From NCBI GenBank assembly GCA_951406725.2, contig OX597818.1, positions 109,802,001-109,866,000 of the forward strand: DNA of 64,000 nucleotides. Direction: 5' to 3'. The number at the start of each line of letters is the position of its first letter. Position 1 is the stretch's first letter. Origin of the DNA: Octopus vulgaris. Its lineage: Eukaryota. Below, piece by piece: positions 46,122 through 46,561 of this stretch. Made by a program: the position numbers.

Positions 46122-46192
<71 letters not shown>

Positions 46193-46483
46193 CTAGCCAG
46201 AGTTCAGTGTCTAGTACTGGTAGTCTATGGTTGGGGTGTTTAGTGGGGTAGTCTATTGTGACCTTAATACTCTGGTGGATGGAGTTAGCTATTTGCTGGA
46301 TGCTCTCCATAGTATTAGTTTCTATTACTATATCAACATTACTCTCTTGTGGGGGTGCCTTTACCACTATGTTGATATCATCAACATAGCGTAAAGAGAC
46401 ACATACAGTATTTCATTCACCGCATGCAGTTCTCAGGTTACAGCCATAAATAAAGGATCAGAGTATACAAAGGAGCCATGAAG

Positions 46484-46561
<78 letters not shown>

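What the first reader, a model, noticed from the sequence alone, without database searches (positions are those of the whole stretch)
46188..46487. PLE coding fragments inserted in the same head-to-head, TA-bounded geometry
Two internal pieces of the nearby RT gene (~41360-41562 and ~41095-41190) are fused 5'-to-5', and each 3' end abuts (TA)n. This directly links this PLE family to the twin-priming geometry. It also implies priming at internal A/U-rich RNA sites, without needing the 3' terminus.
Basis: partly seen in the sequence, partly recalled or inferred. Interest (0 to 1): 0.7.

Follow-up and report, generated by a model that had tools for sequence, protein, structure and literature searches.

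The report
Head-to-head retrotransposon fragments in TA repeat
Two short internal pieces of a nearby octopus Penelope-like retrotransposon gene sit back to back inside a TA microsatellite, most likely an aborted insertion copied from both cut DNA strands, which is an unusual example of behaviour already known for these elements.

Summary
46188-46391 copies 41360-41563 (203/204 identical) and 46392-46487 is the reverse complement of 41190-41095 (93/96). They are joined bluntly 5'-to-5'. Each RNA-sense 3' end abuts a perfect (AT)n tract.

The source is a 3.6-kb Penelope-like element (PLE) on the minus strand, 40361-43954. [quoted passage not shown]

- Head-to-head copies and (TA)n targeting are published PLE hallmarks.
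- Cleavage and extension of both target strands, and internal RT initiation, were shown in vitro in 2024.

What is unusual is that both arms lack the element's 3' end. Both start at ORF-internal sites carrying the same AGAAAU(U) motif (chance about 0.002-0.008), which also lies near both element termini.

My best reading is an abortive, doubly primed PLE integration (about 0.5). The main rivals are DNA-level templated repair of a broken (TA)n from the copy 4.6 kb away, and capture of PLE cDNA at a break. Only one of the two start sites is strongly A/U-rich.

Genome-wide mapping could not be run, because no octopus DNA collection was available. Interest is modest.

The parts
46188..46391 (-). 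Fragment 1: copy of PLE ORF segment 41360-41563 (codes RYVDD...ELWLEI). RNA-sense 3' end at 46188, abutting (AT)n; 5' end at the inner junction.
   Evidence: 203/204 identical, E 1e-102; translation; single T>C change, L>P.
46392..46487 (+). Fragment 2: reverse-complement copy of PLE ORF segment 41095-41190 (codes KRHIQY...GAMKK). 5' end at the inner junction; RNA-sense 3' end at 46487, abutting (AT)37.
   Evidence: 94 nt, 96.8%, E 1e-38; 93/96 identical; one synonymous change, Y>H, and E>stop.
46367..46389 (.). 23-nt hairpin-forming palindrome (10-bp stem, 3-nt loop) inherited from the source (41539-41561). It ends 2 nt before the inverted junction at 46391/46392.
   Evidence: Read.
46080..46188 (.). 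Left flank: compound microsatellite of TA-rich sequence, (AC)21.5 at 46122-46164 and (AT)12.5 at 46164-46188.
46486..46559 (.). Right flank: perfect (AT)37.
40361..43954 (-). Near full-length Penelope-like element, the likely source family. RT ORF at 40985-43822 and GIY-YIG ORF at 40423-40839. It carries an in-frame TGA at 40985-40987 and a frameshift in the endonuclease linker. It is bounded by (TA)n on both sides.
41360..41563 (-). Source segment of fragment 1. The sense strand reads ...CUAGAAAUU at its 3' end (41360).
41095..41190 (-). Source segment of fragment 2. The sense strand reads ...GAAGAAAU at its 3' end (41095), followed by UUGAUAAUAUAUUAUG.
40284..40360 (.). (AT)38.5 tract abutting the 3' end of the full-length PLE. 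The sense strand ends ...AAUAGAAAUAAAUAAC.
43955..44055 (.). TA-rich tract (92% matches) abutting the 5' end of the full-length PLE.

Best explanation
The 300-bp block is the scar of an abortive integration by a (TA)n-targeting Penelope-like element.

Proposed steps (all inferred):
1. The element's GIY-YIG endonuclease cut both strands of an (AT)n tract.
2. Each exposed 3' end was extended by the RT on PLE RNA.
3. Extension did not start at the element's usual 3' end. It started at two ectopic sites inside the ORF, 735 and 999 nt upstream of that end, both at an AGAAAU(U) motif.
4. The two cDNAs stopped after 96 and 204 nt.
5. Their free ends were ligated bluntly by host end joining.

This gives two non-overlapping ORF pieces joined 5'-to-5', with their 3' ends against the repeat.

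Shown by the sequence: the copies, their orientation, the blunt junction, the (AT)n flanks, the shared motif, and the PLE nature of the source.
Inferred: that RNA rather than DNA was the template, that the target 3' ends were the primers, and that AGAAAU(U) guided initiation.
For: - Geometry: opposite orientation with both RNA-sense 3' ends outward. By my count this is 1 of 4 possible arrangements of two pieces.
- Single-RNA topology: the pieces do not overlap, and the more 5' piece starts 169 nt upstream of the end of the other. This is the gap topology described for L1 twin priming (PMC12016303, passages).
- Target: the insert sits in (AT)n, as does the full-length copy. (TA)n is the published preferred target of PLEs that carry the CX2-5CxxC linker (PMC8557442, passages). 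The linker is present here (C753, C758, C761; by eye).
- Shared motif: both 3' ends fall at AGAAAT(T), which occurs 7 times in the 3594-nt sense strand.
  - Chance of a shared 6-mer or longer at two random ends is 0.0017.
  - It is 24/3090 = 0.0078 if both ends must finish in AT.
  - The same motif lies 13 nt from the element's 3' end and 15 nt from its 5' end.
- Precedent: a purified PLE protein cleaves and extends both target strands, and starts RT inside the RNA at a site not homologous to the target (PMC11167929, main text).
- Arm lengths: 96 and 204 nt lie in the range of the other head-to-head, TA-bounded arms in this window, about 60-200 nt.
- Palindrome: one lies 2 nt from the inverted junction, a feature reported at PLE inverted junctions (PMC3846280, discussion passage).
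Against: - Proximity: the closest relative of both pieces is only 4.6-5.1 kb away in cis. A DNA-level copying process predicts this. Retrotransposition does not, unless reinsertion is strongly local.
- Source ambiguity: the neighbour differs from the fragments at 4 of 300 bases. At 2 of these the fragment carries the state seen in P0001. The neighbour may or may not be the source, so this does not separate the models.
- Post hoc motif: AGAAAU(U) was noticed after looking. The canonical 3' end does not stop at the motif but 7 nt past it.
- No RNA hallmark: there is no intron loss, poly(A) or readable target-site duplication.
- Weak site 1: it has no significant A/U richness or (TA)n complementarity. 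No shared stem-loop was found at the sites (z-scores -0.48, +1.57, -0.03, +0.13).
- Missing PLE features: Rfam found no hammerhead ribozyme, and no terminal repeat (pLTR) was found for this copy.
- W family: its head-to-head form may be inherited as a unit rather than re-made at each insertion. It is therefore not independent support.
Confidence: 0.5

Rival explanations
1. DNA-level templated repair. A break or stalled fork in the fragile (AT)n tract was repaired by copying the neighbouring PLE DNA 4.6-5.1 kb away. Synthesis ran 41360 to 41563, switched to the opposite strand at 41190, ran to 41095, then rejoined the (AT)n. This is replicative template switching of the MMBIR/FoSTeS kind, with no RNA or RT involved.
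For: - Both pieces come from a 469-bp stretch of a copy only about 5 kb away in cis.
- One continuous synthesis path with two switches explains the whole structure.
- The outer junctions share 1 and 2 nt with the repeat.
- A hairpin-forming palindrome lies just before the switch point.
- The window is dense in long perfect (TA)n tracts, 53 in 64 kb. That such tracts are break-prone is recalled knowledge, not from a call.
Against: - It does not predict that both outer ends are the RNA-sense 3' ends (1 in 4 by chance).
- It does not predict that both fall at AGAAAT(T) (p about 0.002-0.008).
- It does not predict that the copied DNA is the one autonomous (TA)n-targeting retroelement in the window.
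- The inner junction has no microhomology, and the outer ones have only 1-2 nt.
- Homology-driven invasion from a (TA)n end should have started at the (TA)n tracts flanking the PLE and copied its termini, not internal segments.
- The nearby 96-bp repeat (45984-46079) first looked like a second local templated copy. It is better read as the terminal repeat of a separate PLE-type insertion.
Confidence: 0.2
2. Capture of free PLE cDNA pieces at a double-strand break in the (AT)n tract by non-homologous end joining. RT made the pieces, but the target did not prime them. This resembles the capture of Ty1 cDNA at breaks in yeast (recalled knowledge, not from a call).
For: - The inner junction is blunt and the outer junctions overlap the repeat by only 1-2 nt.
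- The fragments are short, 96 and 204 nt.
- A shared AGAAAU(U) end could still reflect RT start-site preference.
Against: - Random capture gives the observed orientation only 1 time in 4.
- It does not explain why the two pieces are neighbours on the RNA, 169 nt apart.
- It does not explain why the site is the element's own preferred target.
- Sequence alone cannot separate it from target-primed synthesis at this one locus.
Confidence: 0.13
3. Decayed remnant. A conventional larger head-to-head PLE insertion, with both arms reaching the canonical 3' end, later lost about 1000 and 735 bp from its outer parts through microsatellite-associated deletions.
For: - (TA)n tracts are mutable.
- Source site 2 has an AUAUAU run 7 nt downstream of the break.
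- In the neighbouring palindrome at 44056-44414, one arm ends exactly where an internal TATATA run of the other arm lies.
Against: - It needs two independent deletions, each ending exactly at a tract boundary and at the same 6-mer.
- The fragments are only 1.3% diverged from the neighbour.
- Slippage at the internal TA run would leave 6 more bases than are seen at junction 2.
- No leftover PLE sequence lies beyond the flanks.
Confidence: 0.05
4. Assembly or read chimera in a repeat-dense region.
For: PLE tandem and inverted structures are reported to cause assembly problems (PMC8557442, passage). The block is flanked by long perfect dinucleotide repeats.
Against: - The block has its own substitutions, including a private stop codon. 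It is therefore not a pasted duplicate of the neighbour.
- A chimera would have to create three precise junctions.
- The window contains no N or gap.
Confidence: 0.05

Closest known systems
Canonical head-to-head PLE insertions: an inverted 5'-truncated copy next to a direct copy (Evgen'ev and Arkhipova 2005 and Arkhipova 2006 as cited in PMC8557442; PMC3846280)
   Same: - PLE sequence in opposite orientations joined head-to-head, with 3' ends outward.
- Insertion into an AT-rich or (TA)n target.
- A palindrome close to the inverted junction.
   Different: - In the published form both arms end at the element's normal 3' end or pLTR, sometimes with a 30-40 bp tail on one side, and one arm is usually long.
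- Here both arms are short ORF-internal pieces lacking the 3' 735-999 nt, and they are different segments rather than two copies of the same end.
In vitro behaviour of the Anolis Poseidon PLE, PAc (PMC11167929)
   Same: Both target strands are cleaved and extended. [quoted passage not shown] The DNA target is AT-rich.
   Different: - PAc starts at two defined adjacent sites in an AC-rich stem-loop near the pLTR-ORF junction, and these define the normal element end.
- Here the starts would be ectopic, in unstructured A-rich coding RNA.
- The element belongs to a different, CX4CxxC-linker, (TA)n-targeting lineage.
L1 twin priming (Ostertag and Kazazian 2001, as described in PMC12016303)
   Same: Two cDNAs of opposite orientation come from one RNA. 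The internally primed one lies 5' of the other, with a gap or overlap at the inversion. Here the gap is 169 nt.
   Different: - In L1 the non-inverted cDNA starts in the poly(A) tail. Here neither arm reaches the 3' end.
- The enzyme family differs (GIY-YIG PLE versus APE-type LINE).
- A target-site duplication cannot be read inside a microsatellite.
Templated insertions from replicative template switching, and cDNA capture at double-strand breaks (recalled knowledge, not from a call)
   Same: Short patchwork of nearby sequence in mixed orientation, with 0-2 nt junction overlap, at a break-prone repeat.
   Different: These processes predict no preference for 3'-ends-outward orientation, for a retroelement as donor, or for a shared end motif.

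Membership tests
Penelope-like element with C-terminal endonuclease (source element 40361-43954) | Reverse transcriptase domain | tested here: met
   - The 945-aa ORF contains YVDD.
- 243 homologues with E<=1e-3 among 5120 candidates; the best is 93% identical, from Octopus vulgaris.
- The family profile hits solved reverse transcriptases weakly (E 4e-5).
- Pfam RVT_1 is found only below cut-off, in 4 of 40 family members, and not in the window ORF itself.
Penelope-like element with C-terminal endonuclease (source element 40361-43954) | GIY-YIG endonuclease C-terminal to the RT in the same ORF | tested here: met
   - The family consensus has V.Y.I.C...C...Y.GET followed by R, H, H, H, R, E, N.
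- P0001 carries RT and this motif in one ORF.
- The window ORF 40423-40839 hits Pfam GIY-YIG at E 0.0014, 19.3 bits, below the 22.6 cut-off.
- 2 of 40 family members hit at E<=0.01.
- Atlas neighbours carry RVT_1 plus GIY-YIG (a lead only).
- In the window copy the ORF is broken by a TGA and a frameshift.
Penelope-like element with C-terminal endonuclease (source element 40361-43954) | [quoted passage not shown] | tested here: met
   Nearly invariant C753, C758, C761 (CX4CxxC) and C780, C785 between the two halves of the core. The window reads CTDKYCTVC (by eye). Clade assignment by phylogeny was not done.
Penelope-like element with C-terminal endonuclease (source element 40361-43954) | Pseudo-LTRs (partial tandem terminal repeats) | tested here: not met
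   Self-BLAST of the masked window shows no direct repeat between the ends of 40361-43954. This copy runs from (TA)n to (TA)n.
Penelope-like element with C-terminal endonuclease (source element 40361-43954) | Hammerhead ribozyme motif | tested here: not met
   - No Rfam hammerhead at gathering score in the whole window.
- None at E<=5 in 36-48 kb.
- The bare core pattern CUGANGA...GAAA has 5 matches in the window against 1.23 expected. None lies in this element.
Penelope-like element with C-terminal endonuclease (source element 40361-43954) | RT groups with reference PLEs, next to telomerase RTs, in a phylogeny | not tested
Twin priming (two target strands prime on one RNA) | Two cDNA-derived segments in opposite orientation joined 5'-to-5', with 3' ends at the target | tested here: met
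Twin priming (two target strands prime on one RNA) | The internally primed segment lies 5' of the other on the RNA, with a limited gap or overlap | tested here: met
   Segments are 41095-41190 and 41360-41563 on a minus-strand RNA, with a 169-nt gap. The definition is from PMC12016303.
Twin priming (two target strands prime on one RNA) | One segment starts at the RNA's normal 3' end | tested here: not met
   Both segments end 735 and 999 nt upstream of the element's 3' end at 40361.
Twin priming (two target strands prime on one RNA) | RNA, not DNA, template; target-site duplication | not testable with these tools
   The copied segments contain no intron or poly(A). The target is a dinucleotide repeat, so a duplication cannot be read.
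Replicative template switching (MMBIR/FoSTeS) | Template nearby in cis; microhomology at the junctions | tested here: inconclusive
   The template candidate is 4.6-5.1 kb away. Junction overlaps are 1, 0 and 2 nt.

The most novel reading that the evidence does not exclude
AGAAAU(U) is a minimal cis signal at which this octopus PLE's RT can begin DNA synthesis from either strand of a cut (TA)n target. The locus would then be a natural record of ectopic, motif-guided internal initiation on both strands. That would give a sequence rule for where PLE reverse transcription starts, and would explain 3'-truncated PLE debris in TA microsatellites.
Probability: 0.2. Interest if true: 0.55.

Novelty: new variant of a known kind. 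Interest (0 to 1): 0.35.

Why it matters
How Penelope-like elements integrate is still largely unknown. The only biochemical study (PMC11167929) reports both-strand extension and internal initiation for one vertebrate element.

A genomic scar in which both arms start at ectopic internal sites sharing one motif would be in vivo support for that behaviour in a distant, (TA)n-targeting lineage. It would also hint at what the RT recognises.

If the block instead comes from DNA-level repair, it is an example of (TA)n tracts acting as break-prone sites that pick up nearby sequence. Either way it is a single locus. Its value is as a pointer to a genome-wide census, not as a result in itself.

Tried and rejected
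- **Hammerhead ribozymes.** The aim was to tie the head-to-head elements to PLEs. Rfam gave none at gathering score, none at E<=5 in 36-48 kb, and none at E<=10 in 38150-38470. Those lists held only hairpin and microRNA-like chance matches to palindromes and microsatellites. The bare core pattern gave 5 matches against 1.23 expected, and 1 of 100 shuffles reached 5. This is not enough to call a ribozyme.
- **Shared RNA stem-loop** at the two start sites and the element termini: none, z-scores between -0.48 and +1.57.
- **Pfam naming.** The window RT ORF had 0 families and GIY-YIG was below cut-off. Among 40 homologues, RVT_1 hit 4 and GIY-YIG hit 2 at E<=0.01.
- **Solved structures.** P0001 alone gave nothing meaningful. 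The family profile gave only weak hits to defence-associated RTs.
- **Second local templated copy.** I first read the 96-bp repeat 45984-46079 this way, as support for DNA-level repair. I dropped that once 45280-46079 resolved into one PLE-type insertion, an inverted arm plus a direct copy with a terminal repeat.
- **W family as proof of recurrent twin priming.** I dropped this because all three copies share both outer ends and differ only at the hairpin centre. Inheritance of the hairpin as a unit, with central deletions, fits equally well.
- **Substitutions as a test of whether the neighbour is the source.** Of 4 differences, 2 are neighbour-private, 1 is fragment-private and 1 is synonymous and unassignable. 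This fits both models.
- **A-to-G changes as a sign of RNA editing:** 1 of 4 differences, uninformative.
- **Not checked.**
  - Genome-wide mapping of the family could not be done.
  - The supplementary files of the papers were not opened. Those of PMC8557442 (family lists, consensus sequences) could bear on clade assignment.

Full report
**What is there**

The block at 46188-46487 is made of two copies of the nearby gene.
- Self-BLAST of the window shows 46188-46391 matching 41360-41563 on the same strand: 204 nt with 1 mismatch. After masking microsatellites this is 203 nt at 99.5%, E 1e-102.
- 46392-46485 matches 41190-41097 on the opposite strand: 94 nt, 96.8%, E 1e-38.
- Base by base, the second match runs to 46487/41095, 96 nt with 3 mismatches.

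The pieces meet at 46391/46392 with no shared base. Tandem Repeats Finder places a perfect (AT)12.5 at 46164-46188 and a perfect (AT)37 at 46486-46559. The fragments overlap these tracts by 1 and 2 nt.

**What the source is**

The 41-kb sequence lies in a 945-aa open frame on the minus strand, 40985-43822. It is followed by a 138-aa frame at 40423-40839.
- Residues 400-945 have 243 homologues at E<=1e-3. The best is an Octopus vulgaris protein (P0001), 93% identical (586/633). The window is therefore from an octopus or a close relative.
- An alignment of 40 family members gives a conserved C-terminus: CX4CxxC, then V.Y.I.C...C...Y.GET, then R, H, H, H, R, E, N.
- Pfam sees the GIY-YIG domain in the window frame only below cut-off: E 0.0014, 19.3 against 22.6 bits. 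It sees RVT_1 and GIY-YIG in 4 and 2 of the 40 members.
- Atlas neighbours combine RVT_1 with GIY-YIG (a lead only).

An RT followed by a GIY-YIG endonuclease is the architecture of Penelope-like elements. The CX2-5CxxC linker is the one associated in print with (TA)n targeting (PMC8557442, passages).

The window copy is broken in two places:
- It has TGA where P0001 has W.
- It has a frameshift in the linker.

It runs from (AT)38.5 at 40284-40360 to a TA-rich tract at 43955-44055.

Two published PLE features were not found:
- There is no terminal direct repeat for this copy.
- There is no hammerhead ribozyme.

tblastn with 120 homologues finds PLE-coding DNA only in this copy and in the two fragments.

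**Geometry**

Because the gene is on the minus strand, fragment 1 is antisense on the + strand and fragment 2 is sense. The junction is 5'-to-5' and each RNA-sense 3' end lies against (AT)n.

On the RNA the two segments do not overlap. The more 5' one starts 169 nt upstream of where the other ends. That is the gap topology described for L1 twin priming (PMC12016303, passages).

Unlike L1 twin priming and unlike the published PLE form, neither arm reaches the element's 3' end. They stop 735 and 999 nt short of it.

**Is the TA bounding meaningful?**

The window has 53 TA tracts of at least 12 bp. Two exact tract boundaries by chance are about 7e-7 (my arithmetic), so the bounding is real.

However, any insertion into a (TA)n tract would be TA-bounded. 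The flanks alone show the target, not the primer.

Of the 52 inter-tract segments, 36 were 60-1500 bp and were examined. The other 16 were left out for size. Among the 36:
- 6 hold an inverted self-match of at least 100 nt.
- 7 hold a short one.
- 23 hold none.

Head-to-head structures are therefore common here but are not the rule.

**The start sites**

Both fragments end, in RNA sense, at AGAAAU(U): ...CUAGAAAUU and ...GAAGAAAU.
- The hexamer occurs 7 times in the 3594-nt sense strand.
- Two random ends share a 6-mer or longer, allowing one base of offset, with probability 0.0017.
- If both must end in AT, the figure is 24/3090 = 0.0078.
- Two more of the seven copies lie 13 nt from the element's 3' end and 15 nt from its 5' end.

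I found this motif after looking, so it is a lead, not a test.

The 'A/U-rich site' claim holds for site 2: 18/20 A/U downstream (top 0.6% of positions), with an in-phase AUAUAU run 7 nt away. It holds only weakly for site 1: 15/20, top 13.7%. Site 1's match to a (TA)n primer is ordinary. No shared RNA structure was found at the sites.

**What is already known**
- PLEs are described as forming head-to-head inverted copies next to direct ones, with a one-sided 30-40 bp tail, and as preferring (TA)n (PMC8557442, passages).
- Head-to-head is the commonest inverted form. Palindromes sit at the inverted junctions, and an ORF-internal piece has been seen inverted upstream of an element (PMC3846280, passages).
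- A purified Anolis PLE cleaves and extends both strands, and starts RT inside the RNA at a site not homologous to the target (PMC11167929, main text read).

What this locus adds is that both arms would have started at ectopic sites inside the ORF.

Here too a 23-nt palindrome (46367-46389) ends 2 nt before the junction.

I found no paper describing such doubly 3'-truncated PLE pairs. The searches were made, which cover open-access text only.

**Context in the window**
- 44056-44414 is a 97% palindrome between two TA tracts. One arm is 30-41 nt longer on the outside.
- 45280-46079 resolves into one PLE-type insertion:
  - an inverted arm, 45280-45450 = reverse complement of 45497-45667, 164/171 identical;
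  - a direct copy longer than one unit, with a 96-bp terminal repeat, 45456-45551 = 45984-46079, 94/96 identical.
- Three copies of a 230-bp hairpin element share both outer ends and differ only in the centre. Its head-to-head form may be inherited rather than re-made.

These structures show that TA-targeted, head-to-head inserts are frequent here. Only the finding itself contains recognisable PLE coding sequence.

**Weighing the explanations**

For RT-mediated double priming:
- the 3'-ends-outward orientation (1 in 4 by chance);
- the retroelement donor;
- the element's own target;
- the shared end motif;
- arm lengths like those of the other inserts;
- the in vitro precedent.

Against it:
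- The closest relative is only 4.6-5.1 kb away. DNA-level template switching or local repair predicts that directly.
- No RNA hallmark is available.

The four substitutions do not decide the matter. Two are private to the neighbour (the fragments share P and H with P0001). One is private to the fragment (a stop codon). One is synonymous.

| Explanation | Weight |
|---|---|
| Doubly primed abortive integration | about 0.5 |
| DNA-level templated repair | about 0.2 |
| cDNA capture at a break | about 0.13 |
| Decay of a larger insert | about 0.05 |
| Artefact | about 0.05 |

**Verdict**

The geometry and the target are known PLE features. The ectopic, motif-sharing start sites on both arms are a new variant worth a genome-wide census, which the tools here could not run.

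Noticed in passing
window 1205-1432, 32174-32367, 38195-38425: A ~230-bp family, each copy lying between (TA)n tracts. It has a long arm, a short inverted arm, and a 67-72 nt one-sided extension. All three copies share both outer ends (CCGG... and ...AAATAAAG) and differ only in the hairpin centre. The copy at 38357-38377 carries a bare hammerhead core pattern, but Rfam finds no ribozyme.
   Followed up: partly
window 44056-44414: A 97% palindrome directly upstream of the PLE's 5' TA tract. One arm extends 30-41 nt further out. The shorter arm stops exactly where the longer arm has an internal TATATA run, and there a (TA)32 tract begins.
   Followed up: partly
window 45280-46079: A non-coding insertion with PLE-like architecture: an inverted arm, a direct copy longer than one 528-bp unit, and a 96-bp terminal repeat. 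TA-rich repeats lie on both sides. It lies immediately left of the finding.
   Followed up: partly
window 42830-43560 (minus strand): The N-terminal part of the PLE ORF is a long asparagine-rich, low-complexity stretch. Asparagine-rich inserts in PLE ORFs were described in rotifers (PMC3846280).
   Followed up: no
window 40985-40987 and about 40770-40790 (minus strand): The full-length PLE copy has an in-frame TGA where the Octopus vulgaris homologue has tryptophan. It also has a frameshift between the zinc-finger-like linker and the GIY-YIG core. This copy cannot encode the full protein as it stands.
   Followed up: partly
window 36986-37888: Another element in two inverted copies, 37029-37308 and 37528-37801 (88% identical), separated and flanked by long (TA)n tracts. 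One end (gaaagaagg...) sits against TA in both copies.
   Followed up: no
window 52866-55267 and 51665-52730 / 53326-54386: A ~178-bp tandem array related to a dispersed ~160-bp repeat with ten or more copies in the window, several of them between TA tracts. There is also a 1.07-kb segmental duplication at 97% identity.
   Followed up: no
window 20485-20509, 30828-30852, 56356-56373, 58431-58456: Further matches to the bare hammerhead core pattern CUGANGA...GAAA (5 in the window against 1.23 expected). Two of them lie within about 30 nt of a TA tract. None reaches any Rfam hammerhead model.
   Followed up: no
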